Below are positions 16,803 through 33,773 of a DNA stretch of 41,394 bases, piece by piece (the first letter of the stretch is position 1; the number at the start of each line of letters is the position of its first letter). Source of the stretch: a virus. The notes beneath the pieces were generated by a model. That model had not been told where the DNA came from. It searched no databases and saw only the letters and a program-made list of their open reading frames with translations. The translations under genes were made by a program, and so were the position numbers. The stretch is taken from positions 1 to 41,394 of the IMG/VR virus record IMGVR_UViG_3300045988_021887; one strand, given 5' to 3'.

Positions 16803-17114
16803 ATGAAAACAAAACAAGATTATATTCGTGATCGTGATATTGATGCACTTAACCACGTACTAAGTACTGAACTTGGTAGGTGGTTTTTTTGTAGGCTTTT
16901 AGACCGCACCGACATATTGAAACAATCGTTTACTGGCAATTCTGAAACGTTCTTTAATGAGGGGAAACGAAAAGTAGGTTTAGCCTACATGAATATGCTA
17001 GGTCAGATTGGCGATGGCGTAGATGGTGTAAAGAAATATCATCAAGCACAACTTGAATATATCGAACAACAAAAACTATTTGAGGCATTAACAGAGAAAG
17101 GTGAACAACCATAA
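16803..17114 (+). CDS. Bbp19-like small head-module protein
   Basis: DIDALNHVLSTELGRWFFCRLL...NEGKRKVGLAYMNML pattern. Assignment from memory. Confidence 0.4.
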   Translation: MKTKQDYIRDRDIDALNHVLSTELGRWFFCRLLDRTDILKQSFTGNSETFFNEGKRKVGLAYMNMLGQIGDGVDGVKKYHQAQLEYIEQQKLFEALTEKGEQP

Positions 17115-17740
17115 TGGCAGATGAAATTTTAACTGGTACGAACGATAACACAGGTAGTACAGATGGTGGTACACCGCAAGATACGAATACACAAGACCAA
17201 CAACAAGACACAATCTTAGGTGGCGGTACTGACACAAGCGGTAACCAAGAACCACCTGCAGAACCTATTGTGTATGATTTCACGAAAGCATTTGAGAGTG
17301 GTGAAGTAGACCAAACAATCGCCAGTGAGTTTTCGAAGTTGCTTAATGGTGTTGGCGCAACGCAAGAACAAGCAGTAGAGATGGCTAAATTTGGTGAAAA
17401 GTATGCTACAGACCTTGTAACCGCTTACGAAACTAAAAGGCAAGAGGCTTTAGTAGAACAATACGAAAGTTACAGAGAAAACGCACAACAAGTATTAGGG
17501 AATAAGTTTGACGAAACTGTTGCTAAAGCAGGTGCAGGTGTAGAAGTAGTTGAAAAATCTATTCCAAACATTCGTGAAATTTTAGCCGAAAACGGTTTAG
17601 GTAATCGTGTTGAGTTAATTCAGTTGTTTGCAACGATTGCTGGCATGGCTAGTGAAGATAGCAATACAAGTAATAGCAAGCCAGCTACAGAAATTACAAC
17701 TGAACAAGAATTAGCAAATCGAATTTATAAGGATATGTAA
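17114..17740 (+). CDS. Scaffolding protein
   Basis: 208 aa, acidic and low-complexity N-terminus, helical. Lies between the portal and capsid genes. Confidence 0.6.
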   Translation: MADEILTGTNDNTGSTDGGTPQDTNTQDQQQDTILGGGTDTSGNQEPPAEPIVYDFTKAFESGEVDQTIASEFSKLLNGVGATQEQAVEMAKFGEKYATDLVTAYETKRQEALVEQYESYRENAQQVLGNKFDETVAKAGAGVEVVEKSIPNIREILAENGLGNRVELIQLFATIAGMASEDSNTSNSKPATEITTEQELANRIYKDM

Positions 17741-22342: not shown

Positions 22343-22814
22343 TATTTGCCCCTCTAAGCACGTTTCTTTAATTCGTGAGTTATATATCAACTTACGTTCG
22401 ATAGATGCCTTAGAGGTTAAATATATAAATCGAAAAAATTCAAACTATGGCGAAAATGACTTTGTGAACGATATTCTTAGGGAAGATTATCAAAGTCGAA
22501 TTGTTATTGATAATGACAAGCCATTATGTGTGTATGGGGTATCGAACACATCATTAAATGGGATGCATTGCATTTACTTTTTGGGGAGTAAAGATTTTGA
22601 ACGTAGTTTGACATTGCAAAAGCAATTCATAAAAGTTAGTAGAAATATCATTGGGGAATGGCTACAAACTAGGGAAGTACTTTTTAATTACATACATAAA
22701 GAAAATCACCGCACCATTAGATGGCTAAAGTCATTAGGTGCGGTTATTCATTACGATATTAACGATGGGGATATGGTTTTATTCACATTGAGAAAGGGGG
22801 ATGCGAATGTGTAA
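22332..22814 (+). CDS. Internal virion protein A-like (T7 gp13 analogue)
   Basis: About 160 aa. ...NHRTIRWLKSLGAVIH resembles the gp13/DUF2833 pattern. Start uncertain (22308, 22326 or 22332). Confidence 0.45.
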   Translation: MECNICPSKHVSLIRELYINLRSIDALEVKYINRKNSNYGENDFVNDILREDYQSRIVIDNDKPLCVYGVSNTSLNGMHCIYFLGSKDFERSLTLQKQFIKVSRNIIGEWLQTREVLFNYIHKENHRTIRWLKSLGAVIHYDINDGDMVLFTLRKGDANV

Positions 22815-23421
22815 CCCTATTGCATTAACTGCAGCGAGTATGGTTGGTACGTTGTTTACGCAACACCAACAAGGTAAGGCACAAGCTGCAATGTATAACC
22901 AACAAGCAAGGGTGGCAGAGGCTAACGCACGCATAAGTGATCGCAAGCAAGAACAGATTGCAGACCAAGCCTTGCAAGAACGAGATAAGATGTCAGATAA
23001 GATGCGACTTATTCAAGGGCAAAACGTAGCGGAAACTGGTGCTAGCGGTTTAGTTATGAGTGGTACACCATTACAATTAATGGCATCTAGCTATGACGAA
23101 TACAATAAAGATATTCAGAATTGGGAAACTAACAAAAATAACAGTATCTACAATGAATATCTTAATGGTATGAACTACCGCAACGAGGCAAGCACCGCAC
23201 GAGCAGCAGCATCAAATGCTAAATCACAAACTAGAATGGCAATGCTAGGAACGATATTGAGTGGTGCATCTAGTATCTATGGACTTAAAAGTCAGTATGG
23301 CGGAAGTGGTAAAGTTGGCGGATATTATTCACCTAACCTAAAAGCATCTCAACAATCTAACTTGGTTAGAGATGGTAGGTTTGTAAGGAACACTATCAAA
23401 AGTAATAAGTGGGGTATCTAA
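22807..23421 (+). CDS. Internal virion (core) protein, gp14-like
   Basis: About 204 aa, Ala/Gln-rich, hydrophobic N-terminus and C-terminal segment MAMLGTILSGASSIYGL. Position matches gp14. Confidence 0.5.
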   Translation: MCNPIALTAASMVGTLFTQHQQGKAQAAMYNQQARVAEANARISDRKQEQIADQALQERDKMSDKMRLIQGQNVAETGASGLVMSGTPLQLMASSYDEYNKDIQNWETNKNNSIYNEYLNGMNYRNEASTARAAASNAKSQTRMAMLGTILSGASSIYGLKSQYGGSGKVGGYYSPNLKASQQSNLVRDGRFVRNTIKSNKWGI

Positions 23422-25589
23422 TGCGGCTTGTAAATTACAATGGCGAACAAAAACTAAATACAATTAGCGGTGGTGTGCAAGCTACTGGTAATGAATTAGC
23501 GTTTGGCGGAAATCAACAAGGTGTAAAAGGTGTAATTAATGCCATTGATAACATTAACGCACAGATGCAAAAGCGACTTGATGAAGATTTGAACATCGCC
23601 TATATGAACGCTGAAACAGATTATAAAAATCGTATATCGCATGAATTAACCAATAAAGAAACTGGTATTTTGCACAAAGAGTTAAATGGTGCTGCTAATG
23701 TAACGCAACTATTTAACGAAAGTGAATACAATATCAGACAAGAAGTGTTAAGCAATCTACCTAATAACAAACGATTGCGTGAGCGATTTATTCAAATGGC
23801 GGATAAAGATTATCACGCAAATAATATGCGTGTCCAAGTGCATGAGCGTTCTGAACGTGAAAAGTACAAGGATGTAACCTTTAATAATAATGTGAAATCA
23901 TCTGAACAAATTGCAGTACTAGGCTACAACAACCCTAATATTGTATCTAATTCTCTTAGCACCATTAAGAATAGTATTGAAACCATGTATGGTGATAGAG
24001 GCGAAGAATTTGTAAAAGCTAAGTATCAAGAGGTGGCTGACAGAGTAGGCGCTGCAATCATTGATGAAACAGTAACACGGAATGATATTACTGCAGGTCC
24101 ACAAACAATAGCTGCACTAAGAGAAATGGGTGTAAGTGAGGGTGTGTTATCTAAAGCAGCAGTAGCAATCGATAAGGTGAATACACAACAAACTATTGAT
24201 AAACGTATTGTAGGTGATGTAGACACTTTTGGTGAGGGGAACGCGGAAAAAGCAGCAGATGCATATATTGCTACATTACCTAAAGCAGGGCAAGGCGGAA
24301 ATATGAACCTAGCTGCACTTGATAGCGCTGTTAATGAACAGTTAGGTAAGCCGTACTTGCTTGGTGGTGATGGTGGAGAAAGCACAGATTGCGGTAAATT
24401 TACGCTTGATGTGTCCGCAAAAGCTGGCGTTACGTTGAACTACCGCACCGCTGATGGTCAGTATTTACAAGCTGAACAAGAGGGTAATCTTGTTAAAGAT
24501 GTTTCACAAGCACAAAAGGGTGATTTAGTATTTTGGCACGTTCCAAGTAATGAGGCTAGATGGGCAACTAGTGATGATCCGAGTGCAGTTAATTCTGACG
24601 ATAAAGCCTATAAAGGTGTAACTCATGTAGGGGTTTATATGGGTGATGGTAAAGTTGCACAAGCTGGTAGCGGTGGTGTGTCTATTGTTAGTACTGATAT
24701 ATACCCTATCGTTGGTGTAGGTAAGTTTAGCGGTAGTGCTAAAGGTTATACAGATGGCGAACTCTTACAAAAACGAGAAGCATATGTAAAAGCGTACAAT
24801 GTAGAAGAAAGCAAGCGAAAGAAAGCAAGAGCAGAGGCACTAGCAAGACAAAAAGAGGCTATTCAACTACAATTAATTGAAATGGGTAAGAATGGTGCAT
24901 CTAGCGGTGAGATGGCTAATTTCTTAGATAATGCTATTGGTGATAATAAAGAACTAACATTAGCGTTTGGTTCACAAAGAAACCAATTCATGAGAGCAAA
25001 TGAAAGAGAGCAACAAGCTGCTAACCAATCATGGGGAATGAATGAAATTCGTTCTATGATTGGCAATAACAAATCACAAGAAGAAATCTTTAAGTTTATT
25101 GATGATAATCATATTAACTTATCATTGGAGCAATACAACTCATTGCGTAGAACAGTTAATGACCGTGATAACGGAACTGGTGATTATGCACCAGAGTTAG
25201 CTGGTGTGAATTATGTTCTTAATGATAGTTTAGAGAACATGAATGAGCAACAAAAAGGGTTGGCAAGGATAGGTTTTAAACAACAGATGGGTGCGTGGAA
25301 AGCTAAGTTTGTAGCAGCCGAGGGAAGAGAACCAACAACTGGTGAATTAGATTGGGCTGCACACGAAATAGCAGGGCAAACAGTAATTCAAACTACAAAC
25401 GTAGAACACTTTTGGCAAAATGGAGATAATTATAAAACTAATACATCAATGGCTATATTGGCTGGTGATGGTGTAGTTGATTGGAAAGTACTTGGCGATA
25501 CACACTATATAAGACTTTATAAGTCTAATGGTGATTTTGAAGATATAGATGAGGGTACATTCCATGCTAGGTATAATATTGAGGGATAG
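23421..25589 (+). CDS. Internal virion protein (gp15 position) with NlpC/P60 peptidoglycan endopeptidase domain
   Basis: ATG overlaps the previous TAA. See the domain feature at 24330..24720. Confidence 0.75.
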   Translation: MRLVNYNGEQKLNTISGGVQATGNELAFGGNQQGVKGVINAIDNINAQMQKRLDEDLNIAYMNAETDYKNRISHELTNKETGILHKELNGAANVTQLFNESEYNIRQEVLSNLPNNKRLRERFIQMADKDYHANNMRVQVHERSEREKYKDVTFNNNVKSSEQIAVLGYNNPNIVSNSLSTIKNSIETMYGDRGEEFVKAKYQEVADRVGAAIIDETVTRNDITAGPQTIAALREMGVSEGVLSKAAVAIDKVNTQQTIDKRIVGDVDTFGEGNAEKAADAYIATLPKAGQGGNMNLAALDSAVNEQLGKPYLLGGDGGESTDCGKFTLDVSAKAGVTLNYRTADGQYLQAEQEGNLVKDVSQAQKGDLVFWHVPSNEARWATSDDPSAVNSDDKAYKGVTHVGVYMGDGKVAQAGSGGVSIVSTDIYPIVGVGKFSGSAKGYTDGELLQKREAYVKAYNVEESKRKKARAEALARQKEAIQLQLIEMGKNGASSGEMANFLDNAIGDNKELTLAFGSQRNQFMRANEREQQAANQSWGMNEIRSMIGNNKSQEEIFKFIDDNHINLSLEQYNSLRRTVNDRDNGTGDYAPELAGVNYVLNDSLENMNEQQKGLARIGFKQQMGAWKAKFVAAEGREPTTGELDWAAHEIAGQTVIQTTNVEHFWQNGDNYKTNTSMAILAGDGVVDWKVLGDTHYIRLYKSNGDFEDIDEGTFHARYNIEG
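24330..24720 (+). other. NlpC/P60 cysteine peptidase domain
   Basis: LGKPYLLGGDGGESTDCGKF (Cys codon at 24390..24392), GDLVFWH and THVGVYMGDGKVAQAG. Confidence 0.75.
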
Positions 25590-25597
25590 GTGAGAAT

Positions 25598-28500
25598 ATG
25601 TCTAATAACCCATGGAAAATAGAACAACAAAAAATCAACCCATTTATTAACAAGGATGGTGATCATGGAGAGTTAGGCACACCTGTTAATGGAGTTGTAG
25701 GTAATGCGGTAGATGCAGTAAAGCAAGTAGGTAATGCGTTAGGCGGTTTAGCAGATGCACCTTATCTAGTCGATACAACTGGTAGTGGTAAGGATAGAAC
25801 CTTACAGACTGTATCTACCATTGGTGAGGCTTTAAAGGAAAACCCTATTGTAAATAACCCAGCCTTGCAAGCTGCATCAGCACGCTTTATCTACGCAAGT
25901 AGTGATGCGGTAAAAGCTAATGCAGCACTAGACTATGCTAATAAATTAAACATCGGTGCTGATGTTATATTGAATAGTGGCGAAACAGGTTTTACAAGAG
26001 CAGCATATCTTGCAAATCAAGTAGAACGTGGTAGAACTGTACAATCTCTATATGATGAGTACCCAGAACTTTACAAGGTTAAATATGGTTCACAGTCAGA
26101 GGCTATGTATAGTTTAGAGAATTTACAGTCTATCAAATCTACTCATGGTATATGGGATAGCATCCAACAGAATATATGGTCTATCAATGATCAAATGAAA
26201 TTAGGCGATGCTGGTTATGAATTATCCAATACTACAGACCCTAAGAAAATCGAAGAACTCACAAACGAAATTCAACGATTACAAACTAACCTTTCAAATT
26301 ATCGTCATGCAGATGGACTAGATATAGCACAAGCCGTAATTGGTGAAACCGCTGGACAAGGCTACATGATGGCTAAACAAGGTGGTGTAGGTGCGGTAGC
26401 TGGTGCAGTTGCTGGTGCATTAATCGGTGGTTTAGCTACAGAGGGCGTAGGTGCAGGTGCAGGTGCTGCTACTGGTGCTAAATGGGGTGGCGGTGCTGAT
26501 ATGGCACGCAATATGTACAAAATGTCATTTGGCAATAAGTACATCGAACTCATTCAAAAGAAAGATGCAAATGGTAATCGTGTTTACACAGACCAAGAGG
26601 CTAATCAATACGCTATGTCATTTGCTGCTATTGATGCAGGTATTGAGTTTGCAGCAACCGCAGCTATGGGTAAAGCCTTTAAAGCGGTAGCACCTAAAGG
26701 AATGATTGCAAAAGCTATTAGTGCTGGTGTAGGTGATACAGTTAAAACCTTTGATAGAGGTATCGGAACAACAGTTGCGCAGATGGCTAAAAATTCTATT
26801 AAATCTGGTGTACCTGAACTATTTGAAGAGGGCTTGCAAGATGTAAATGAAAAGGTACAACACAACCTAACACGCAAGGATAATGACTTAGAGGGTTATT
26901 ATAGCGTAGGTGATATTGCTATAGGTTCGCTTGATGCTATGAAACAAGCGTTGCCAGCTGTAATAGGGTTTGGTGCTATCGGTGGTGCAGTAGGTGGTGT
27001 GCGTACTGCAAAGGCTTTTCGTGATTTTCAGAAGTTGACACCAGAACAACAACAAGCAGCTATCATCGCAGAGCAAAACCGCAATGGCGCAGTCATTATG
27101 GATAATGTTCGTAAGGATAGCACTACCAATAAAATCGCAAAAGAAAACCCTGAACTATACGGAAAAATCGTACAAGCACAGGGCGATAAGGTTGGAGTAT
27201 CAACTCAATATGTAGATGTAGCGGAATTAGTACAATCTGAAAACGGACAACTGGCAATTCGTGATATGGTTGATAACGGCTTAGTAACACAAGAGGAAGT
27301 GAAAGCAGCTATTGAGGCTGATGCACCTGTTGAAATTCCTATTGGTAGTTATGCACAAGTATCTATGAACCTATCAGATGAAACAGTAGAGGCATTGAAA
27401 CAAACCTCTTACTTTACACGTGGCGGTATGTCATTAGCTACGCTAGAACGTGCAAAACAAGAAGTGGATGTAGCTAAATCTGTATTAAAAGACGATACAT
27501 CTAAACGTGCTGAACGTATCAAAGATGATATTATCCGTAATGAGTTTGAGGGTGCATCTGATGTAGATCGTGAAGTACTTAATCAAGTATTGGCAGACCC
27601 TACGAACATTAAACGTAACTTCAATAACTTATTGCATACCTTGAAAGAGCAATATAGAGAAACCTATGCAAGCGACTTTGACAATGCAGATAAATCTATC
27701 AATGATGCGGTAAGTACTGGTATTGAACCACAATGGTTAGTTGATTATAAAGCTAACAATGGCGGTAAAGCACCACGTACTAATGCAGAACGTAGACGAG
27801 CAGCATATGAGTATAGCAGAGCAACTACAACTGAAAGCCTTAATGGTAACGCTGATGCACTAGCACAATCTGATGCACATTATGCAGATATGGAACATAT
27901 GTTGATGCAAATCGAAAGTTTAGAGGCTATGAAAGATAAAGTCTTTGAATTGGCGAATAATGACATAGCATTACGGATGCAATTATCTAAAAGTGGATAT
28001 GATGTGTACAACGAAGTAGTTAAAGCTATTAGTGAAAGCACAAATAGAAAACAACGTGAAACTGCAAAAGCAAATGCATTATTGATGGCACAACACGCTG
28101 ATATAATGGCACAATATATGCGACAAATGGGTAAAGGCGGTTATACCGCTATGGACTATTTGCGTGATAGCGTGCGTATTAATATGAATGCAGTTTTAGA
28201 CAATCAAAAAGGTTATAATCAAAATACAAAAGCAGTATGGGAAAGCAAACTTGATAAAGTATTAAGTGATTGGGCTAACAATGTAGATAATGCTAATAAT
28301 ATAGGAAGTAAAAAAACAATAGATATAATGGATTCACCATTAGTCTTTAAGTTGATTAATCTTGACTTAAAAAAAATCAAAATTACAGGCGGTGTTTTGC
28401 ATAAAATATTGCGTTCACCTGTATTTGATTCTAACGGTAAAAGAATTTTATCTGGACATAATGATACAGTTTCCATTGATATGTTGAAACAGTTACCTAA

Positions 28501-31500
28501 TACCATTGCAAATCCATCTGCAATATTTAGTGCAGATAATGGCAAAAAAATTATCATTATAACTGAAGTAATTGGTTTAAACGGAAAGCCTATAATGATG
28601 CCAATATTATTGAACAAATACAATGATAGAGGTGATTATCATGTTGTACAATCTTATTATGCTAGAAATACCAATATAGCGTATTATGATTTGTTATTGG
28701 GTGGGGATTTAATATATATAAACAAAGAACGACTTAGTAATAATCCAAAAAACCAGCCACCATGGCTTGGGGGGATTAAACTAAGTCGTTCATTTATTAA
28801 TAGTATACCAAACGAAAATGATTTAGACAATCTCCGAAAACAACATAATTATCAATATTATCAATCCGCATGGCATGGTTCGCCACATGACTTTGACACA
28901 TTTGATTTAGGTGCTATTGGTACTGGTGAGGGCAATCAAGCACATGGTTGGGGTTTGTATTTTGCTAAAGATAAAAAAGTATCCAAACTATATAAAGAGG
29001 TATTGAGTAAAGAACAAGGCTCTAACAAAAGCAGTTTATTTAAAGTAGAAATACCAAATGAAACAGAGTTATTACCAGAGCAACACCCTATTTCTGGATA
29101 TAGTCGATATGTAAGAGATAGCTTGAAAAACGGATTACATAAAATGTCAGAAGAACAACTGGAACGTTTTACAAGTCTATTAATTAAATATCACAAAGGG
29201 TCTATTATTGGTGATGAATGGACAAATAAATACACACGCTTTATGGATGTAGGGTACATAATATCTGAACTACATAACAAAAATAAAACAATAAATGACA
29301 TCAATAAAATTCAAAAAAGAAATATTGATAGATTTTTAAAAACAGTAGGCATCGATGAAGATATTGACACCATATCTAGTAACGATGAACTATTAAAAAA
29401 TGTATATGAAAAGTTTAGAAATGAGTTATATCCAAAATATGAAAAAGAAAAACAAGTAGAACGAGAACGTGAAGAAAAAGCTATCTTGAATGTTAAGACT
29501 GATGTATATGGTGCATTAGAGAAAACAAATATTGATGGTAAACAGCTGTATTCATTCTTATCTCATGCACTTGGCAATGATGAACATTTTAATCTTCATA
29601 ATGTAAAAAATGCTAAAAAAGCTAGTGAATTTTTAAATAGCATCGGTATAAAAGGTATATACTACGATGGCGAACAAGATGGACGATGCTATGTAGTGTT
29701 CGATGATAAGGCAATCAACGTCATTGAAAAGTACAATCAATCTGTTAATGGTATGACCGAAATCATGAAAGATGGTAAACGCATCATCAGCATTTTCAAA
29801 ACTGCAGATAGAAGTACATTCTTACACGAAATGGGTCATGTATTCTTTGATGATATACAAAAATTAGCATCTATGGAAAACGCACCTGAGCAACTTGTAA
29901 CAGATTGGAACAAGTTGAAAGAGTGGAGCGGTTGGGTTGATGGTGAAAACGTAGACAATACCAAAGCACATGAGAAATTCGCACGAGGTTGGGAAAGCTA
30001 CTTGCGAAGTGGTGAAGCACCAACAAGTGCATTGCAAAGAGTATTCCGTCAATTCTCCAAATGGCTAACATACATTTATCGTAGCGTTCAACGATTAGGT
30101 GGTGAAGTACCATCTGACATTAAAGATGTTATGGCACGTATGATCGCAACCCAAGAGGATATTGAGGCATACGCAGAGCAACAACAACTAGAACAGTTTG
30201 AAAAAACTGAACTGTATAAGCAACTATCCGAGCAAGACCAAGCACGTATGCAGTCTTATATTGCAGATGTAAAAGAAAAAGCAAAAGAACGTGTGATGCG
30301 TAAACTCATGAAAGAACTTGATAATAGACCTATCAAGGAATGGGAAGAAGAAAAGGATGCAATACAAGGCGAAATCGAAAAACGATTGATTGAACAATAT
30401 CCTATCTATAAAGACCATCAACGATACAACACATTTGGTGAGACTGCTTTTGAAAAAACACAATACAATTCTATTGAAGAGTTAGAGAAAGCAGAAGTAG
30501 AACAAACTGGCGCTACATTTAACGATGCTATTAATCAAGAAATGGACAATGCAAAAGCAGAGTTTATGCGTGATAATAATGTAGGCAAAACCAACGAACA
30601 AATAGCAGAAGAAATCTTGCTTAGTACACAAGGTCAAATGAAATTAACCGAAGAAGAAAGTAAGATTATCCAACAATCTACTAATCGTGAGTTAGCGAAG
30701 AACTGGGAATTGCTAGAACGTATTCGTAAGTTAGATACTAACGCAGAAACTATCGATACAGAGTTAGACGAAATCGAAAAAGAGGTTAAGCCTACTAAGT
30801 ACGATGAGTTGAAATCTGATAAGAAAAAAGTAGATGCTGCTTTATCTGATACTACTAAGCAACTAGAAAAAGCAGAAGAGCGTATCGAACGCTTACAAGC
30901 TATGTTAAATAACCGCATCAACAATGTACGTTCTATTCGAGGTGCTGGACTTGGTACAATTTCAGACTACATGGAGCGTGCAAGAAAAGAGTTGGGTGCA
31001 TTACCTATTTCTAATGCGGTACAGTTTAAAACGTATCAAAACAAAGCTGTAACTGCTGGTAAAAAAGCAGATAGAGCATTGGCAGTAGGTGATGTTGATA
31101 AGGCACTTGGCTTTAAGCGTGAACAGATGCTACAACAAGCAAGGGCAAGAGTAGCGTTTGAGAATTTTGAAAAGTCCAAGAAATTGCGATTGAAATTAAA
31201 ACAACAATTACAACGCATGACTAGACCCAAGAACCCTATTGCTATTGAACCTAATATGCGTTATTTCTACAATCACATGGCATATCAAATGGGTTTAACT
31301 AAGTATGACGGCTTACAACCTGTTGATGGTTTTGATATGAATAGTGTGTTAGCTGCATTAGATCCTGATGTTGGTATTCTAAATCAACAATCTATGGTTC
31401 AATTAGAACCTTGGATAGTTGAGATGTTCTACTCTAAAACACCTAAACCATTCCGTTCCATCACGATGAATGAGTTAGAAACCTTAGAAGAACTCATGAC

Positions 31501-33742
31501 TGGTATGTATAAGAACGGCAGAAATGAGTATGAGGGTACAACAATTCTCAACGATAAAGGTGATAGTGTATCGTTTGAAAATGCAGTACAAGAAATCATT
31601 GGCGAGGCTACAGAAACATTTGGCAAAGAAAGTGGCGATGTATTCAACAAACTCAACAATCAAACTAAGATGGATGCAGTAAGTGGTAAGTTGTATAGTT
31701 TCCACTTAGCATTGCTTAAAGTTGAAACATTCTTACGCAGAATGGGTGGCGGTAAAAATGGGTTCGCAGTTAAATACATCTATGACCCAATCAATAGAGC
31801 AACACAAGCGTTCAATGAACGTAAAGAAGTGTCTATGCGTAGACTGGCAAAAGATGTAGGAATATATTCCAAGCGTGAACTGTTTGATATGCGAAATGAC
31901 CATTTGTATACAGTTGGTGAGTTATACGGCTTAACAAAAGAGCAACTTATCATGATTGCTCTTAACTGGGGTACGGAAAGCAACCGACAACGTGTAATGG
32001 AAACCACAAAAGCAAATGAGGTTGAAATTGAACGTGCGTTCCAAGAACACATGACTGATAAGGACTGGGAGTTTGTTATTCGTACATGGGATCATATCAA
32101 TTCATTCTTTGAAGAGCGCAGCCGAGTACAAGAGGAATTATACGGAAACCCATTGAAGAAAGTAAAAGGTTTAACATTTACTATTGGTGGTAGAAACATT
32201 GAGGGGCAATATTTCCCTATTGTGTACAATCCTAAAGTCAATGCATCTGTAAGCGACAACCAAGTTGAAGATATTGCTAAAACTATGGTTAGTAGCAATG
32301 CAGTATGGGGAACTGGCATGAGTGCTACTAAATCACGTTTAGATGTGGTTAAGGATAAATCATTGTTACTTGATTTTGATGTAATTCCTAATGCTATTAC
32401 AGAGGCTATTAATCACGTTACAATGCGTAAAGCGGTAACTGATGTTAATAAGCTAATCAGTAATAGAGAATTGCAAAACTACATTGTGGATAAGTTTGGA
32501 GCTGATACGTATCAATTCTTGCGAACTTGGGTTCGTGATAACTGGCAAGATGAACCAGCAAAGGTTAGTGCGTTTGATAGATTAGTACTTACATTAAAGA
32601 AAAATACATCAACCGCAGTTATGGCTGGTAGAATATCAGTAGCTTTACAAAATGCGTTGAACTTACCAGTTGCGTTTTATCGTATTGGTGTAGGTAACAC
32701 TATTAGAGCTATAAATCATGCTGGAATAGGGTTCTATGGACACGGTACAACTACTTATAACAACACTAGAGATTTTGTATTAGCACAATCAATCTTCATG
32801 CGTGAACGTGTTCAAACTTTGGATAAAGACTTGAAACAAGGCTTATCTATTGGTGGTAAAGGTATTCGCATTAACGATACTAATATTGCTAATTATAAAG
32901 CAGAACAACTTGCTGATATTCGAGATGATATAAACCAAATGGGGTTTAGATTGCTTACAGAAACAGACTTTGCATTGTCTATTCCTGTATGGAAATTTGC
33001 ATATGATCAAAAGCAAGCGGAATTAATTGGTAAAGAGGGTGTAAGTCTTGAATGGATAGAACAACAATCTATCGAGGCTGGCGATAGAGCGGTTAGAGAT
33101 ATATTTGGTAGTGGTGATACTAAAGATGCTGCTGCAATTCAACGTGCTAGAAGTTCTGTTATGCAAATGTTCGTACCATTCTATTCCTACGCTAATACGC
33201 TTTATAACATTATTACAGAGGGGAACTACGCACGGAAAGATACTGGTGATCACGCAAGGTTCGTTAAAATGCTATGGTGGACATTGATTTCACAAGCAGT
33301 AGGTATGACGGCTTACAAAGCTATGACGAATGGCGATGATGATAAGCCTGATGATTTAGCTAAGTCATTTATCGAAGAATTAGTTGCACAAGGTACTATG
33401 GGTATTCCATTGGTTAGGGATATAACCAATATGGCTATGAAGTTTGTATTGAGAGAAAGACCTTATAATAAAGGAAACACAGTATTAGCTACAAGCATAG
33501 CAGAAAAATTCTACGATGTTGGAAACGCTATTATGTCAGACAAGAAAGATGGTGTTGATTTAGGCAGAAGTCTTAGTCAGTTAGCGAACAGGGCAACTGG
33601 TTTTAGTGATACTGTTACAGATGGACTATGGACATTAGCTAAATATGCGTTCACCGATACCGATGCAAAACTAGAAGATGTAATCATGGCTATCATGTTT
33701 GACCGTAGACTTAAAACTAAAAAAGATAAAAAGAAACATTGA
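25598..33742 (+). CDS. Giant (2714 aa) polyvalent internal virion / ejection protein (gp16 position)
   Basis: One uninterrupted ORF between the gp15-like gene and the tail-fibre gene. Gly/Ala zipper TM-like segments (26381..26500, about 26960..27000), long coiled coils and the embedded enzymatic modules listed separately. Confidence 0.85.
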   Translation: MSNNPWKIEQQKINPFINKDGDHGELGTPVNGVVGNAVDAVKQVGNALGGLADAPYLVDTTGSGKDRTLQTVSTIGEALKENPIVNNPALQAASARFIYASSDAVKANAALDYANKLNIGADVILNSGETGFTRAAYLANQVERGRTVQSLYDEYPELYKVKYGSQSEAMYSLENLQSIKSTHGIWDSIQQNIWSINDQMKLGDAGYELSNTTDPKKIEELTNEIQRLQTNLSNYRHADGLDIAQAVIGETAGQGYMMAKQGGVGAVAGAVAGALIGGLATEGVGAGAGAATGAKWGGGADMARNMYKMSFGNKYIELIQKKDANGNRVYTDQEANQYAMSFAAIDAGIEFAATAAMGKAFKAVAPKGMIAKAISAGVGDTVKTFDRGIGTTVAQMAKNSIKSGVPELFEEGLQDVNEKVQHNLTRKDNDLEGYYSVGDIAIGSLDAMKQALPAVIGFGAIGGAVGGVRTAKAFRDFQKLTPEQQQAAIIAEQNRNGAVIMDNVRKDSTTNKIAKENPELYGKIVQAQGDKVGVSTQYVDVAELVQSENGQLAIRDMVDNGLVTQEEVKAAIEADAPVEIPIGSYAQVSMNLSDETVEALKQTSYFTRGGMSLATLERAKQEVDVAKSVLKDDTSKRAERIKDDIIRNEFEGASDVDREVLNQVLADPTNIKRNFNNLLHTLKEQYRETYASDFDNADKSINDAVSTGIEPQWLVDYKANNGGKAPRTNAERRRAAYEYSRATTTESLNGNADALAQSDAHYADMEHMLMQIESLEAMKDKVFELANNDIALRMQLSKSGYDVYNEVVKAISESTNRKQRETAKANALLMAQHADIMAQYMRQMGKGGYTAMDYLRDSVRINMNAVLDNQKGYNQNTKAVWESKLDKVLSDWANNVDNANNIGSKKTIDIMDSPLVFKLINLDLKKIKITGGVLHKILRSPVFDSNGKRILSGHNDTVSIDMLKQLPNTIANPSAIFSADNGKKIIIITEVIGLNGKPIMMPILLNKYNDRGDYHVVQSYYARNTNIAYYDLLLGGDLIYINKERLSNNPKNQPPWLGGIKLSRSFINSIPNENDLDNLRKQHNYQYYQSAWHGSPHDFDTFDLGAIGTGEGNQAHGWGLYFAKDKKVSKLYKEVLSKEQGSNKSSLFKVEIPNETELLPEQHPISGYSRYVRDSLKNGLHKMSEEQLERFTSLLIKYHKGSIIGDEWTNKYTRFMDVGYIISELHNKNKTINDINKIQKRNIDRFLKTVGIDEDIDTISSNDELLKNVYEKFRNELYPKYEKEKQVEREREEKAILNVKTDVYGALEKTNIDGKQLYSFLSHALGNDEHFNLHNVKNAKKASEFLNSIGIKGIYYDGEQDGRCYVVFDDKAINVIEKYNQSVNGMTEIMKDGKRIISIFKTADRSTFLHEMGHVFFDDIQKLASMENAPEQLVTDWNKLKEWSGWVDGENVDNTKAHEKFARGWESYLRSGEAPTSALQRVFRQFSKWLTYIYRSVQRLGGEVPSDIKDVMARMIATQEDIEAYAEQQQLEQFEKTELYKQLSEQDQARMQSYIADVKEKAKERVMRKLMKELDNRPIKEWEEEKDAIQGEIEKRLIEQYPIYKDHQRYNTFGETAFEKTQYNSIEELEKAEVEQTGATFNDAINQEMDNAKAEFMRDNNVGKTNEQIAEEILLSTQGQMKLTEEESKIIQQSTNRELAKNWELLERIRKLDTNAETIDTELDEIEKEVKPTKYDELKSDKKKVDAALSDTTKQLEKAEERIERLQAMLNNRINNVRSIRGAGLGTISDYMERARKELGALPISNAVQFKTYQNKAVTAGKKADRALAVGDVDKALGFKREQMLQQARARVAFENFEKSKKLRLKLKQQLQRMTRPKNPIAIEPNMRYFYNHMAYQMGLTKYDGLQPVDGFDMNSVLAALDPDVGILNQQSMVQLEPWIVEMFYSKTPKPFRSITMNELETLEELMTGMYKNGRNEYEGTTILNDKGDSVSFENAVQEIIGEATETFGKESGDVFNKLNNQTKMDAVSGKLYSFHLALLKVETFLRRMGGGKNGFAVKYIYDPINRATQAFNERKEVSMRRLAKDVGIYSKRELFDMRNDHLYTVGELYGLTKEQLIMIALNWGTESNRQRVMETTKANEVEIERAFQEHMTDKDWEFVIRTWDHINSFFEERSRVQEELYGNPLKKVKGLTFTIGGRNIEGQYFPIVYNPKVNASVSDNQVEDIAKTMVSSNAVWGTGMSATKSRLDVVKDKSLLLDFDVIPNAITEAINHVTMRKAVTDVNKLISNRELQNYIVDKFGADTYQFLRTWVRDNWQDEPAKVSAFDRLVLTLKKNTSTAVMAGRISVALQNALNLPVAFYRIGVGNTIRAINHAGIGFYGHGTTTYNNTRDFVLAQSIFMRERVQTLDKDLKQGLSIGGKGIRINDTNIANYKAEQLADIRDDINQMGFRLLTETDFALSIPVWKFAYDQKQAELIGKEGVSLEWIEQQSIEAGDRAVRDIFGSGDTKDAAAIQRARSSVMQMFVPFYSYANTLYNIITEGNYARKDTGDHARFVKMLWWTLISQAVGMTAYKAMTNGDDDKPDDLAKSFIEELVAQGTMGIPLVRDITNMAMKFVLRERPYNKGNTVLATSIAEKFYDVGNAIMSDKKDGVDLGRSLSQLANRATGFSDTVTDGLWTLAKYAFTDTDAKLEDVIMAIMFDRRLKTKKDKKKH
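28300..28700 (+). other. PBECR-like (Barnase-EndoU-ColicinE5/D-RelE-like) nuclease module
   Basis: KIKITGGVLHKILRS...ILSGHNDTVSIDMLKQLPNTIANPSAIFSADNGKKIIIITEVIGLNGKPIMMPILL matches my recollection of the PBECR layout. Confidence 0.5.
28850..29740 (+). other. PARP-like (H-Y-E clade, ART-PolyVal-like) ADP-ribosyltransferase module
   Basis: AWHGSPHDFDTFD (His at 28874..28876), HGWGLYFAKDKKVSKLY (Tyr at 28958..28960) and IKGIYYDG...RCYVVFDDKAINVIEKY. Compare PARP1 LWHGSR / GKGIYFADMVSKSANY / NEYIVYDIAQVNLKY. Confidence 0.5.
29760..30110 (+). other. Zincin-like metallopeptidase module (HEMGH)
   Basis: RSTFLHEMGHVFFDD (29825..29839 encodes HEMGH) followed by AHEKFARGWESYLRSGEAPTSALQRVFRQFSKWLTYIYR. 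Confidence 0.6.
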
Positions 33743-33748
33743 TAAATA

Positions 33749-33773
33749 AGGACTATCCATTATGGGTAGTCCT
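33749..33773 (+). promoter_or_regulatory. Hairpin sequestering the SD and presenting the ATG of the tail-fibre gene
   Basis: AGGACTA(T)CC-ATTATG-GGTAGTCCT: 9 bp plus one bulge. The SD AAGGA sits in the 5' arm and the ATG (33762..33764) sits in the loop. Confidence 0.35.

What the first reader, a model, noticed from the sequence alone, without database searches (positions are those of the whole stretch)
28223..29731. AT-rich cassette of about 1.5 kb inside the ejection-protein gene encodes a toxin-type nuclease module plus a PARP-like ADP-ribosyltransferase module
Seen in the sequence:
- The middle of the 2714-aa ORF becomes visibly more AT-rich between about 28220 and 29700. I did not compute GC.
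- The block is bracketed by near-identical codon triplets for Y-N-Q: TATAATCAA at 28214..28222 and TACAATCAA at 29732..29740. This looks like a recombination junction for an inserted module.
- The first half reads KITGGVLHKILRS...SGHNDTVSIDMLKQLPNTIANPSAIF...KKIIIITEV, the layout I associate with PBECR (Barnase-EndoU-ColicinE5/D-RelE-like) RNase modules.
- The second half reads AWHGSPHDFDTFD...HGWGLYFAKDKKVSKLY...IKGIYYDG..RCYVVFDDKAINVIEKY. This aligns motif for motif with the human PARP1 catalytic core (LWHGSR / GKGIYFADMVSKSANY / SVKGLG / NEYIVYDIAQVNLKY), that is, the H-Y-E ART fold.
- The position of the catalytic Glu is Cys here (29687..29689), so the chemistry may differ or the module may be inactive.

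Inference: the host gene occupies the T7 gp16 position, and gp16 is ejected into the cell. These effector modules would therefore be delivered with the DNA, as T4 Alt is. They could act in host takeover or counter-defence.
Basis: partly seen in the sequence, partly recalled or inferred. Interest (0 to 1): 0.85.

Follow-up and report, generated by a model that had tools for sequence, protein, structure and literature searches.

The report
Swappable effector cassette in ejection protein
A giant protein that a Veillonella phage probably injects with its DNA carries a 1.5-kb exchangeable cassette encoding a predicted RNase and a predicted ADP-ribosyltransferase; this is a clear new example of the known "polyvalent protein" strategy, not a new kind of system.

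Summary
Bases 28223-29731 are the most AT-rich part of the 2714-aa ORF (30.4% GC against 38.3%), and Y-N-Q codons bracket them.

The first half is a Pfam MuF_C domain (E=6.5e-16), which belongs to the phage BECR (PBECR) RNase clade. The second half belongs to the ART-PolyVal family. It is split by a 185-aa helical insert, so the window's own score is below threshold. However, 25 of 26 full-length homologues hit PF18760, and the AlphaFold model matches viral ART-PolyVal models (E=5e-9).

The gene sits in the T7 gp16 position of a temperate Veillonella podophage and belongs to the Bordetella BPP-1 Bbp10 family.

In 72 related phages the slot holds 8 first-module types (MuF_C alleles, LPD3, PBECR5 or none) and 7 ART-insert types, in 28 combinations. 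Some modules are 100% identical at nucleotide level inside backbones only 60-75% identical.

Every module ends in aromatic-x-Gln, just upstream of an invariant HExxH...E domain. These may be processing sites, which is inferred and untested.

Verdict: new member of a known kind (polyvalent proteins, Iyer et al. 2017).

The parts
25598..33742 (+). 2714-aa internal-virion (ejection) protein gene. It belongs to PHROG 9880 and the Bordetella BPP-1 Bbp10 family, and it sits in the T7 gp16 position.
   Evidence: ORF list and translation. phrog_9880 hit at E=4.8e-140. tblastn matches to Bbp10-like genes of BPP-1, Caulobacter, Xanthomonas and Vibrio podophages, all starting from aa ~1376 onward. Gene order is shown.
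28211..28222 (+). Junction J1: G-Y-N-Q (aa 872-875), the end of the N-terminal backbone.
   Evidence: All 72 homologues have [Y/L]-x-Q at this point. Nucleotide homology to relatives that carry other modules stops at 28191-28216.
28223..28864 (+). Module 1 (aa 876-1089): a MuF_C / PBECR-clade predicted metal-independent RNase. The Pfam match covers aa 954-1047 (nt 28457-28738). The conserved residues are His954 (28457-28459) and Ser1019 (28652-28654).
   Evidence: PF18819 at E=6.5e-16, 58.8 bits against a cut-off of 27.6. His and Ser are conserved in diverse MuF_C homologues. The His-plus-Ser/Thr criterion comes from Iyer 2017. The module is absent or replaced in homologues. It is 100% identical at nucleotide level in L015 despite a 60-75% identical backbone.
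28850..28864 (+). Junction J2: Y-Q-Y-Y-Q (aa 1085-1089), between module 1 and the ART module.
   Evidence: [Y/F]-x-Q precedes (S/A/T/L)AWHGSP in every homologue that has an ART. In 21 of 21 distant ART-PolyVal starts, Gln lies 3 residues before the W/Y of the [WY]HG motif. Homology resumes at 28792-28862.
28865..29740 (+). Module 2 (aa 1090-1381): ART-PolyVal-family predicted ADP-ribosyltransferase. Conserved residues are His1093 (28874-28876), Tyr1121 (28958-28960), Tyr1132 and Asp1369 (29702-29704).
   Evidence: PF18760 scores 25.8-26.4 bits, below the 31.2 cut-off, and matches profile positions 10-66 only. Of 26 full-length homologues, 25 hit PF18760, best E=4.6e-14. Conserved residues are shown. 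The AF2 model has pLDDT 91.9. BFVD Foldseek gives 23 hits at E<=1e-3, many of them named ART-PolyVal.
29048..29602 (+). Variable helical insert inside the ART (about aa 1151-1335). It falls into 7 sequence types among relatives.
   Evidence: The AF2 secondary structure is all helical here. Identity to other alleles is 20-30% while the ART core is 72-100%. Nucleotide homology breaks at about 28994-29063 and 29626-29651.
29729..29740 (+). Junction J3: K-Y-N-Q (aa 1378-1381), the end of the cassette.
   Evidence: [Y/F]-x-Q| followed by [STN][IV]NG is found in all 72 homologues. It is encoded by four synonymous codon combinations. An equivalent motif lies about 30-45 aa upstream of HExxH in BPP-1, Carin1, SAC, Nostoc and vir555 phages. 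It is also present in 65% of 132 distant representatives, against 22% of control windows.
29741..30127 (+). Conserved HExxH...E domain immediately after the cassette, a putative zincin-like metallopeptidase. It contains HEMGH (aa 1410-1414, nt 29825-29839) and HEKFARGWESY (aa 1458-1468, nt 29969-30001).
   Evidence: The H, E and H of the motif and the downstream E are invariant in 27 diverse representatives. The domain is conserved in BPP-1 and vir555. There are 9450 relatives at E<=1e-3. No Pfam, NCBIfam or PDB match was found, and the AF2 model of this part is all helical.
22308..25589 (+). Upstream internal-virion genes: a T7 gp13-like gene (22308-22814), a T7 gp14-family gene (22801-23421), and a 726-aa NlpC/P60 plus lysozyme-like protein in the gp15 position (23409-25589).
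   Evidence: PF11090, PF24072 and PF00877 hits. PHROG internal virion protein and endolysin hits.

Best explanation
**What it is.** Bases 28223-29740 are a two-module effector cassette. It is embedded in the giant internal-virion (ejection) protein of a temperate Veillonella podophage. That protein belongs to the Bordetella BPP-1 Bbp10 family and sits in the T7 gp16 position. It is therefore a 'polyvalent protein' in the sense of Iyer et al. 2017.

**The two modules.**
- Module 1 (aa 876-1089) is a MuF_C/PBECR-clade domain. It carries the His-plus-Ser configuration of predicted metal-independent endoRNases.
- Module 2 (aa 1090-1381) is an ART-PolyVal domain with an intact H-Y-(Y)-D set of conserved residues. 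A roughly 185-aa variable helical insert splits it, and this insert may set target specificity.

**How the cassette evolves (shown).**
- The cassette occupies a dedicated slot just upstream of a conserved HExxH...E domain.
- The slot is refilled by recombination among co-circulating phages. It can hold MuF_C alleles, LPD3, PBECR5, an ART with different inserts, or single modules.
- All of these module types are more AT-rich than the backbone.

**How it works (inferred).**
- The protein is packaged in the capsid and ejected with the DNA.
- The modules then act on host RNA and on host proteins or nucleic acids at the very start of infection, for takeover or counter-defence.
- Less certainly, the invariant aromatic-x-Gln motifs that end every module are sites where the polyprotein is cut, possibly by the adjacent HExxH domain, to free the effectors.
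For: **Domain identity.**
- MuF_C scores E=6.5e-16, above the gathering threshold. Iyer 2017 classify MuF-C as a PBECR.
- His954 and Ser1019 are conserved across MuF_C relatives that are only 26-40% identical.
- For the ART, 25 of 26 full-length homologues hit PF18760.
- H1093, Y1121, Y1132 and D1369 are nearly invariant. They match the H-Y-D triad described for this family.
- The AF2 model has pLDDT 91.9. It has 23 significant BFVD matches, many named ART-PolyVal or polyvalent.
- The best-probability PDB hits are all ART-superfamily folds: tankyrase-2, RES toxin and MbcT.

**Slot and exchange.**
- The cassette region is 31-55% conserved, against 80-90% for the backbone.
- Module presence, absence and replacement occur exactly at the junctions.
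- Replacement modules are LPD3 and PBECR5, the latter at E=4.6e-33.
- In L015 the module is 100% identical at nucleotide level over 28245-28785 while the backbone is 60-75% identical. The converse holds for the ART module in L017.
- Eight module-1 types and seven ART-insert types occur in 28 observed combinations.
- The cassette has lower GC than the backbone in 71 of 71 relatives.

**The same slot in distant Bbp10-like proteins.** It holds PBECR1 in BPP-1, ART-PolyVal in Caulobacter Jess A (E=6e-22), PBECR5 in Cobetia Carin1 and a GNAT in a Vibrio phage.

**Virion location.** The gene order is gp13-like, gp14-like, hydrolase, this gene, then tail fibre. The same order is seen in BPP-1. As a precedent, the 2811-aa polyvalent protein gp47 of phage phi24B was detected in virions by mass spectrometry.

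**Junction motif.**
- P1 Gln is invariant at about 200 junctions.
- The motif is kept through synonymous codon changes.
- It is positionally enriched upstream of HExxH in distant relatives, 65% against 22%.
- The H, E, H and downstream E of the HExxH domain are invariant.
Against: - No enzymatic activity, packaging or ejection has been measured for this protein or for any close relative.
- The window's own ART-PolyVal score is below Pfam's threshold.
- Foldseek against solved structures gave no significant hit for the ART (best E=0.5), the MuF_C module or the HExxH domain.
- The MuF_C part of the model has low confidence, with pLDDT 45-83.
- The canonical ART catalytic-Glu position is Cys here and Asn in most of the family. 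The conserved Asp lies at the far end of the strand. I could not measure its distance to the NAD site because no coordinates were available.
- The HExxH region is predicted to be all helical, without the zincin beta-sheet. No Pfam, NCBIfam or PDB relative was found.
- A zincin that cuts after Gln with a variable P1' residue would be unusual. This is from general knowledge of metallopeptidase specificity.
- The aromatic-x-Gln before the ART forms part of its first beta-strand in the model, so it may be structural rather than a cleavage site.
Confidence: 0.72

Rival explanations
1. The modules are real and delivered, but they are never released. The aromatic-x-Gln motifs are conserved domain-boundary or linker elements that keep swapped domains in register and supply short homology for recombination. 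The effectors act while still tethered to the ejectosome at the inner membrane. The HExxH domain is either an effector protease or degrades the cell wall.
For: - In the AF2 model the motif before the ART is part of beta-strand 1, and KYNQ ends the last strand.
- Recombination breakpoints map at or near the motifs.
- N4 vRNAP and the ArdC/TraC1 polyvalent proteins are transferred unprocessed, according to Iyer 2017.
- The phi24B authors propose a peptidoglycan role for the peptidase of gp47.
Against: - Nine bases are too few for homologous recombination.
- The motif is conserved at the amino-acid level through four synonymous codon combinations.
- It occurs at the ends of unrelated folds: LPD3, PBECR5, MuF_C, ART and the backbone.
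- It shows a sharp positional peak about 31 residues before HExxH across relatives that are at most 50% identical to each other.
Confidence: 0.4
2. The ART-like module is not a transferase. It may be an NAD+ glycohydrolase or phosphorylase like the RES/MbcT toxins, or a catalytically dead NAD/ADP-ribose-binding module. The cassette would then deplete or sense NAD+ rather than modify targets.
For: - The best Foldseek PDB hits are RES toxins and MbcT. Both are NAD+-degrading ART-fold toxins.
- The canonical catalytic Glu position is Cys or Asn.
Against: - Those hits are not significant (E>=0.5).
- H-Y-Y plus a conserved Asp is the configuration Iyer 2017 assign to transferases of the Tox-ART-HYD2 clade.
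- PARPs that lack the Glu are still mono-ADP-ribosyltransferases (established knowledge).
- Depleting NAD+ in the cell the phage is about to use would be costly to the phage (my argument).
Confidence: 0.15
3. The cassette serves competition rather than takeover. It would act as a polymorphic-toxin-like payload against rival phages or bacteria, or in superinfection exclusion by the lysogen, and that conflict would drive its diversification.
For: - Iyer et al. note that HYD2-clade ARTs are shared with polymorphic toxins and may act as toxins or virulence factors.
- Combinatorial module turnover resembles that of Rhs/CDI toxin tips (general knowledge).
- The phage is temperate: it carries an integrase and a repressor.
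Against: - The gene lies in the late structural operon between the internal-virion and tail-fibre genes.
- There is no adjacent immunity gene and no internal promoter enrichment.
- The modules are internal to a virion protein, not C-terminal tips.
Confidence: 0.12
4. The region is a non-enzymatic hypervariable spacer, for example a length or antigenic variant of a structural protein. On this view the domain matches are relics.
For: - The region is the least conserved part of the protein.
- Some relatives carry only about 206-230 aa here.
- One NCBI fragment shows an ART truncated to its first roughly 30 residues.
Against: - The predicted catalytic residues are conserved across alleles and across distant families.
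- Every variant filling the slot is a recognised polyvalent-protein effector domain.
- Identical modules spread between diverged backbones.
Confidence: 0.05

Closest known systems
Polyvalent proteins of phages and conjugative elements (Iyer, Burroughs, Anand, de Souza, Aravind 2017, PMC5512222)
   Same: - It is a giant multidomain protein encoded among virion genes.
- It combines a PBECR-clade domain (MuF-C), an ART of the H-Y-D type and an HExxH domain. MPTase, ART, MuF-C and PBECR are hub domains of that network.
- The prediction is the same: delivery with the DNA, and possible release by the peptidase.
   Different: - The scaffold here is a T7 gp16-position ejection protein of the Bbp10 family. 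The cases discussed in the paper's main text are MuF, portal or N4 vRNAP fusions. 'gp16' and 'BPP-1' are not mentioned in that text.
- No Pfam model, including MPTase-PolyVal, hits the HExxH domain.
- The conserved aromatic-x-Gln module boundaries are not mentioned in the sections of the paper I read.
Bordetella phage BPP-1 Bbp10 and other Rauchvirus-like gp16-position proteins (Caulobacter Jess A gp039c, Cobetia Carin1 gp32)
   Same: - They are homologous from aa ~1376 onward, at about 23-29% identity.
- The gene order is the same.
- They have the same HExGH...HExFAxGFExY domain, with an effector module just upstream: PBECR1, ART-PolyVal or PBECR5. A [F/Y/L]-x-Q|G motif lies between the module and the domain.
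   Different: - The N-terminal 875 aa are not detectably similar.
- The Veillonella protein lacks the LPD22 domain.
- It carries two modules in tandem.
- These GenBank proteins are annotated 'crystallin motif', 'lysis protein' or hypothetical, not as effector carriers.
Phage T4 Alt
   Same: It is a capsid-packaged ADP-ribosyltransferase that is injected with the DNA and acts on host proteins at the onset of infection.
   Different: - Alt belongs to the R-S-E clade and is a stand-alone protein.
- It is targeted to the capsid by a signal that the prohead protease removes.
- Here the ART is of the H-Y-D clade and is embedded in an ejection protein.
Stx phage phi24B gp47 (bioRxiv 10.64898/2026.04.10.717836)
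   Same: It is a 2811-aa podophage protein with LPD and MuF-C domains. Mass spectrometry found it to be abundant in virions, and the authors propose it is an ejection protein.
   Different: - Its domain set is different (LPD5, LPD1, LPD38).
- No ART was reported.
- No cassette polymorphism was described.
Helicobacter prophage jhp1044 mosaic polyvalent proteins, and polymorphic toxin (Rhs/CDI) tip exchange
   Same: PBECR and other effector domains are shuffled combinatorially among orthologous proteins. This has been interpreted as an arms race.
   Different: - Here the exchange is confined to one internal slot with fixed junction motifs.
- In polymorphic toxins the variable part is the C-terminal tip, and it comes with an immunity gene.

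Membership tests
Pfam MuF_C (PF18819) / PBECR clade | Profile score above the curated gathering threshold | tested here: met
   The score is 58.8 bits against a cut-off of 27.6, E=6.5e-16. The match covers aa 954-1047 and profile positions 8-102 of 103. The direct PBECR2 hit is only E=0.14.
Pfam MuF_C (PF18819) / PBECR clade | [quoted passage not shown] | tested here: met
   His954 (SGHND) and Ser1019 (VQSYY) align with His and Ser in all diverse MuF_C relatives examined. The criterion is quoted. This was tested at sequence level only.
Pfam MuF_C (PF18819) / PBECR clade | BECR fold: an N-terminal helix followed by 4-5 strands | tested here: inconclusive
   The AF2 model shows a helix followed by four strands (model residues 91-144), but pLDDT is only 45-83. 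Foldseek found no BECR-fold hit in the PDB.
Pfam MuF_C (PF18819) / PBECR clade | Metal-independent endoRNase activity | not testable with these tools
   This needs a biochemical assay. It is only a prediction even for the family as a whole, and Mu gp30's own copy is thought to be inactive.
Pfam ART-PolyVal (PF18760) | Profile score above the curated gathering threshold | tested here: not met
   The window protein scores 25.8-26.4 bits against a cut-off of 31.2. It matches only profile positions 10-66 of 140, because the 185-aa insert splits the domain.
Pfam ART-PolyVal (PF18760) | Full-length homology to bona fide family members | tested here: met
   Of 26 homologues that align over 97-100% of the ART half, 25 hit PF18760 (best E=4.6e-14). 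Caulobacter Jess A has a full-length match at E=6e-22 in the same slot.
Pfam ART-PolyVal (PF18760) | H (strand 1), Y (strand 2), D (strand 5) triad | tested here: met
   H1093, Y1121 and D1369 are nearly invariant in the alignment. The triad is as stated by Iyer 2017. Spatial proximity could not be checked.
Pfam ART-PolyVal (PF18760) | Structural similarity to family members | tested here: met
   The AF2 model (pLDDT 91.9) has 23 BFVD hits at E<=1e-3, the best at 5e-9. Many are named ART-PolyVal-like or polyvalent. These targets are predicted structures, not solved ones.
Pfam ART-PolyVal (PF18760) | NAD+-dependent ADP-ribosyl transfer | not testable with these tools
   I found no experimentally characterised member and no solved structure.
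PARP-like H-Y-E ADP-ribosyltransferases | Catalytic Glu at the start of strand 5 | tested here: not met
   The position is Cys1364 here, Cys or Phe in close relatives and Asn in most of the family.
PARP-like H-Y-E ADP-ribosyltransferases | Significant sequence or structure match to PARP catalytic domains | tested here: inconclusive
   Pfam PARP hits occur only in relatives, at E=0.006-0.03. Foldseek matches tankyrase-2 at E=1.1, probability 0.69.
Polyvalent proteins (Iyer et al. 2017) | Two or more distinct effector-type domains in one large polypeptide encoded with virion or transfer genes | tested here: met
   MuF_C, ART-PolyVal and an HExxH domain occur together in a 2714-aa protein located between the gp14-like and tail-fibre genes.
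Polyvalent proteins (Iyer et al. 2017) | Zincin-like MPTase domain (HExxH helix, downstream Glu, three-stranded sheet) | tested here: inconclusive
   HExxH and the downstream E are invariant in 27 diverse relatives. However, there is no Pfam or PDB hit, and the model is all helical.
Polyvalent proteins (Iyer et al. 2017) | Packaged in the virion and transferred into the host | not testable with these tools
   This is inferred from gene position. The precedent is phi24B gp47, detected in virions by mass spectrometry.
T7 gp16-type ejection protein | Gene order gp13 - gp14 - gp15 - gp16 - tail fibre | tested here: met
   PF11090 (T7 Gp13) hits the gene at 22308 and PF24072 (T7 gp14) hits the gene at 22801. 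A 726-aa hydrolase follows at 23409, then this gene, then a pectate-lyase-like fibre gene at 33762.
T7 gp16-type ejection protein | Sequence homology to T7 gp16 | tested here: not met
   No Pfam, NCBIfam or PDB-sequence match to gp16 was found. The only family assignment is phrog_9880, of unknown function. The equivalence is positional only.

The most novel reading that the evidence does not exclude
The invariant aromatic-x-Gln motifs that end every module are processing sites. They also lie about 31 residues upstream of the HExxH motif in thousands of related giant proteins. On this reading the ejection protein is a polyprotein. An embedded, so far unclassified HExxH...E peptidase, or another protease, cuts after Gln to release interchangeable effectors in the capsid or in the newly infected cell. 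That would give polyvalent proteins a defined, portable 'cut here' signal, and it would explain how unrelated modules can be dropped into the slot and still function.
Probability: 0.3. Interest if true: 0.7.

Novelty: new member of a known kind. Interest (0 to 1): 0.45.

Why it matters
Veillonella is an abundant human oral and gut commensal, and its phages are barely characterised.

**What the locus shows.** At population scale (222 IMG/VR relatives), a podophage ejection protein carries a dedicated slot. Predicted RNase, ADP-ribosyltransferase and other modules are shuffled through it like cartridges. This pattern is the signature of an ongoing arms race with host defences.

**What it offers for experiments.**
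- It provides a compact natural system of 8 x 7 module types on one scaffold.
- It could be used to test what ART-PolyVal and MuF_C/PBECR domains do. Neither family has a characterised member that I could find.
- It could be used to test whether polyvalent proteins are processed, and at which sites.

**Limits.** The idea of injected multi-effector proteins was set out in 2017. This finding therefore extends and sharpens a known concept and does not found a new one.

Tried and rejected
**Searches that found nothing useful**
- Megablast of the gene against GenBank phages gave no match.
- tblastn of the cassette alone gave only three short hits to the ART N-terminal motif.
- Foldseek of the ART model and of the 725-aa model against the PDB gave nothing at E<=1e-3. 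I therefore make no claim of a solved-structure match to PARP, DarT, barnase or a zincin.
- Profile searches of PDB sequences with the ART family (A1) and with the giant-protein family (A6) returned only chance coiled-coil hits.
- NCBIfam gave nothing for the giant protein or for the HExxH region.
- Word-index homologue searches for the MuF_C half and the HExxH region returned only 7 and 10 near-identical fragments. Those parts of the 725-aa model consequently rest on shallow alignments.
- Literature searches for PF18760/ART-PolyVal/MuF_C were swamped by an unrelated abbreviation. Searches for Bbp10/Rauchvirus and for Veillonella podophages found nothing on this protein.

**Ideas considered and dropped**
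- I considered a prohead protease as the agent that cuts at aromatic-x-Gln. ORF 17114-17740 hits a PHROG labelled 'protease'. It has no Pfam, NCBIfam or PDB support and sits where a scaffold gene is expected, so I dropped it.
- I considered internal promoters or terminators in the AT-rich block. The region has 12 promoter-like sites against 13.1 +/- 4.1 expected, and 1 terminator-like site against 1.2 expected. There is no enrichment.
- I considered the reverse-strand ORF 28219-28623 (134 aa, TTG start) as a gene. I judge it a by-product of AT-richness and found no support for it.

Full report
**1. The observation**

The window has a 2714-aa ORF at 25598..33742 on the + strand.

GC content falls sharply in the middle of the ORF.
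- A sliding profile drops from 0.36-0.46 to 0.26-0.34 between about 28200 and 29700.
- Bases 28223-29731 are 30.35% GC. The rest of the gene is 38.3% and the window as a whole is 36.6%.
- Only 0.5% of all 1509-bp windows are as low.
- The drop affects all three codon positions and goes with a Lys/Asn/Ile/Tyr-rich, Ala/Arg-poor composition.

TATAATCAA (28214-28222) and TACAATCAA (29732-29740) encode the only two Y-N-Q tripeptides of the protein.

**2. Genomic setting**

The window is a temperate podophage.
- It carries an integrase (39061-40143, minus strand) and a repressor-like gene.
- It carries terminase, portal, a GP7-family major capsid protein and tail tubular proteins A and B.
- These are followed by a T7 gp13-like gene, a T7 gp14-family gene, a 726-aa NlpC/P60 plus lysozyme-like protein, the giant ORF, and a pectate-lyase-like fibre gene.

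Bordetella phage BPP-1 has the same order: bbp12, bbp11, bbp10, then the fibre gene. The giant ORF is therefore in the T7 gp16 position, but it shows no detectable sequence homology to gp16. Its only family label is phrog_9880, of unknown function.

Relatives in bacterial genomes are almost all in Veillonella (V. parvula, V. fallax and several MAGs), so Veillonella is the host. IMG/VR holds 222 relatives from human-associated samples, and I analysed 80 of them.

**3. What the two halves are**

*First half.* It gives a significant Pfam MuF_C match: PF18819, E=6.5e-16, 58.8 bits against a cut-off of 27.6, covering aa 954-1047. The direct PBECR2 hit is only E=0.14.
- Iyer et al. 2017 state that the MuF-C domain is a member of their phage-BECR (PBECR) clade of predicted metal-independent RNases.
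- They define the active configuration as a His in the N-terminal helix plus a Ser/Thr in strand 4, and they regard Mu's own copy as inactive.
- In an alignment with MuF_C relatives that are 26-40% identical, His954 (SGHND) and Ser1019 (VQSYY) are conserved throughout.

*Second half.* It gives a sub-threshold ART-PolyVal match: PF18760, 25.8-26.4 bits against a cut-off of 31.2, restricted to profile positions 10-66 of 140. The reason is a helical insert of about 185 aa between the N-terminal core (AWHGSPHDFDTFDLGAIGTGEG...GWGLYFA...Y) and the C-terminal core (GIKGIYY...CYVVFDDK).
- Homologues that align over the whole half exist, and 25 of 26 hit PF18760, with a best E of 4.6e-14.
- An AlphaFold model built on a 44-sequence alignment is confident (pLDDT 91.9, pTM 0.83). 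It shows the expected split beta-sheet with a long helical excursion.
- Against predicted viral structures it has 23 hits at E<=1e-3 (best 5e-9). Many are named ART-PolyVal or polyvalent protein, and one is a Bbp10-like 'crystallin motif' podovirus protein.
- Against solved structures nothing is significant. The hits with the highest probability are all ART-superfamily folds: RES toxin, MbcT, tankyrase-2, and, at low probability (0.03-0.13), cholera toxin A1 and exotoxin A.

**4. The catalytic residues**

The family alignment shows nearly invariant H1093, G, P, the IGTGEGxQ loop, Y1121 (GLYFA), Y1132 and D1369 (VVFDD).
- Iyer et al. describe this family as H (strand 1), Y (strand 2), D (strand 5), belonging to the Tox-ART-HYD2 clade. 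The window protein has all three.
It is Cys or Phe in close relatives and Asn in most of the family.
- It is therefore not a lost Glu, and it says little about activity.
- From established knowledge, PARPs that lack this Glu (H-Y-Φ) are still mono-ADP-ribosyltransferases.
- Whether D1369, at the far end of the strand, can reach the NAD+ site could not be checked without coordinates.

**5. The cassette is exchangeable**

Across 56 distinct full-length relatives, the backbone is 80-90% conserved. Residues 851-1350 are only 31-55% conserved.

- ART only, with aa 876-1086 missing (L054, L056, L061, L066, L068, L071, L072);
- MuF_C only, with aa 1092-1376 missing (L074, L075);
- an unrelated 206-230-aa module (L052, L062, L063, L076);
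- an unrelated 418-aa module (L069, L078);
- the unrelated 230-aa module followed by an ART (L010, L012, L020).

Pfam identifies the unrelated modules as LPD3 and PBECR5, the latter at E=4.6e-33.

Segment-wise identities are mosaic.
- L015 and L023 have flanks 68-78% identical in protein but a MuF_C module that is 100% identical.
- L017, L018, L033, L034 and L073 have flanks 61-70% identical but an ART that is 88-98% identical.
- At nucleotide level, L015 is 60-75% identical in the backbone and 100% identical over 28245-28785.
- L017 jumps to 89-98% over 28785-29685 and falls back at 29730.
- Breakpoints cluster at about 28191-28216, 28792-28862, 28994-29063, 29626-29651 and 29732-29735.

Clustering gives 8 first-module types and 7 ART-insert types in 28 observed combinations among 72 sequences. 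The cassette is lower in GC than its backbone in all 71 relatives, by a mean of 7.4 points, whatever module it holds.

**6. The same slot in distant phages**

GenBank relatives align only from aa ~1376-1397 onward, that is, from just after the cassette. The modules they carry just upstream of the homologous region are shown below.

| Phage protein | N-terminal domain | Module in the slot |
|---|---|---|
| BPP-1 Bbp10 | LPD22 | PBECR1 (aa 643-729) |
| Caulobacter Jess A | LPD22 | full-length ART-PolyVal (E=6e-22) |
| Cobetia Carin1 | LPD22 | PBECR5 |
| Vibrio phage 1.185.O | LPD22 | GNAT |
| vir555 | no LPD22 hit | ART-PolyVal (weak hit, E=0.007) |

**7. The junction motif and the HExxH domain**

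*The motif.* In all 72 Veillonella-phage sequences, every module boundary reads [Y/F/L]-x-Q|.
- The backbone ends GY(A/N/K)Q.
- MuF_C ends NYQYYQ.
- LPD3 ends YTQTYNQ.
- PBECR5 ends VEVYFQ.
- The ART ends EKYNQ.
- Gln is invariant at about 200 junctions.

At J3, four synonymous codon combinations encode Y-N-Q (24, 21, 16 and 4 sequences). The conservation is therefore on the peptide, not on the DNA.

*The downstream domain.* Directly after the cassette comes ...STFLHEMGH...(about 45 aa)...HEKFARGWESY.
- The same pattern is found in BPP-1 (HESGH...HEQFARGFEAY) and in vir555.
- A full HMMER scan with this domain finds 9450 cluster representatives at E<=1e-3. Almost all lie inside proteins of 1500-3900 aa.
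- In 27 diverse representatives, the H, E and H of the motif and the downstream E are invariant.
- Their other Pfam domains are MuF_C, LPD22, LPD3, ART-PolyVal, ddrB-ParB, PBECR5 and GNAT. No Pfam model covers the HExxH domain itself.

*The motif in distant relatives.*
- In 132 representatives, 65% have [F/Y/W]-(x)-Q in the 34 residues ending 28 before HExxH, against 22% of control windows. There is a sharp peak at position -31.
- In 21 of 21 ART-PolyVal starts, Gln lies 3 residues before the W/Y of the [WY]HG motif.
- The same motif is seen in BPP-1 (KFYQ|G), Carin1 (AYNQ|G), SAC (ALNQ|G), the Nostoc phage (PLFQ|G) and vir555 (TQFQ|A, ARFQ|L).

*What I infer.* I infer, but have not shown, that these are processing sites. 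Iyer et al. proposed that MPTase domains process polyvalent proteins into functional units.

*Evidence against this inference.*
- The AF2 model of the HExxH region is all helical, and no zincin is recovered by Foldseek.
- The motif before the ART is part of its first strand.
- A zincin with P1-Gln specificity would be unusual.
- A PHROG 'protease' label on ORF 17114-17740 found no support elsewhere.

**8. Mechanism**

*Shown:*
- a two-module cassette of recognised polyvalent-protein effector families;
- conserved predicted catalytic residues;
- a fixed slot;
- lateral exchange of modules.

*Inferred from gene position and precedent:*
- The protein is packaged in the capsid and ejected. T4 Alt is an injected capsid ART. 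The 2811-aa polyvalent protein gp47 of phi24B was found in virions by mass spectrometry. In T7, gp16 reaches the cytoplasmic side of the envelope.
- The RNase-like module is likely to act on host or defence RNAs, and the ART on host proteins or nucleic acids, within the first moments of infection.
- The variable ART insert is a plausible specificity determinant.
- The rapid combinatorial turnover points to conflict with host defences.

**9. Novelty**

The kind of system is known. Polyvalent proteins were described in 2017, and MuF-C, ART and MPTase are hubs of that network.

What is new is the instance and its resolution:
- a Veillonella prophage family;
- a gp16-position (Bbp10-family) scaffold that databases annotate as 'hypothetical', 'crystallin motif' or 'lysis protein';
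- a documented population of cassette alleles;
- a conserved aromatic-x-Gln boundary next to an unclassified HExxH...E domain.

I rate it a new member of a known kind, with moderate interest. The processing-site reading, if confirmed, would be the more interesting result.

Noticed in passing
window 29741-30127 (aa 1382-1510), with HEMGH at 29825-29839 and HEKFARGWESY at 29969-30001: A conserved HExxH...E domain follows the cassette directly. The H, E, H and downstream E are invariant in 27 diverse relatives. It has 9450 relatives in the 1.84-billion-protein library, almost all inside proteins of 1.5-3.9 kaa. No Pfam, NCBIfam or PDB model covers it. It may be an unmodelled clade of polyvalent-protein metallopeptidase.
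   Followed up: partly
window ~30875-30900 (aa ~1760-1769): This is a second, smaller polymorphic site in the same protein. Eight relatives (for example L015, L018, L027, L029, L050, L054, L075) carry a 68-aa insertion in a coiled-coil segment. It looks like a length variant of the rod rather than an effector module.
   Followed up: no
window 23409-25589: The 726-aa protein in the T7 gp15 position combines an N-terminal lysozyme/endolysin-like region (PHROG 10475) with an NlpC/P60 peptidase domain (PF00877, aa 313-378). The cell-wall-degrading activities therefore sit on this protein rather than on the gp16-position protein, as they do in T7.
   Followed up: no
window 17114-17740: A 208-aa ORF between the portal and capsid genes hits phrog_458, which is labelled 'protease' (E=5.6e-24). 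It has no Pfam, NCBIfam or PDB support. Its position suggests a scaffolding protein, so the PHROG label may be misleading.
   Followed up: partly
window 26380-26500 and 26960-27010 (aa ~262-300 and ~455-470 of the giant protein): These are glycine- and alanine-rich hydrophobic stretches: GGVGAVAGAVAGALIGGLATEGVGAGAGAATGA and LPAVIGFGAIGGAVGGV. They could be membrane-inserting segments of the ejection protein. This was not analysed.
   Followed up: no
window ~39800-41394: This is a second low-GC region of about 30%, at the integrase/repressor end of the window. It is the only other place where 1509-bp windows are as AT-rich as the cassette.
   Followed up: no
proteins P0121, P0036, P0061, P0126, P0129 (NCBI Veillonella genome records) and L089:3001-3418: In several deposited bacterial genomes the giant gene is called as fragments of 130-360 aa, which suggests frameshifted or decaying prophages. 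P0129 has an ART cut down to its first ~30 residues and joined directly to ...LYNQ|SVRG. The V. infantium contig (L089) keeps only a 71-aa remnant and a 36-aa remnant.
   Followed up: partly
window 28219-28623, minus strand: A 134-aa reverse-strand ORF with a TTG start lies inside the AT-rich cassette. There is no supporting evidence for it, and it is probably a by-product of base composition.
   Followed up: no
L090 (BPP-1 bbp10), L092 (Jess A gp039c), L093 (Carin1 gp32), L095 (Vibrio 1.185.O gp18), L096 (Xanthomonas SAC gp23): The GenBank annotations of these homologous giant genes are 'crystallin beta/gamma motif-containing protein', 'lysis protein', 'coil containing protein' or hypothetical. 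They miss the LPD22, PBECR1, PBECR5, ART-PolyVal and GNAT domains that Pfam detects in these proteins.
   Followed up: partly
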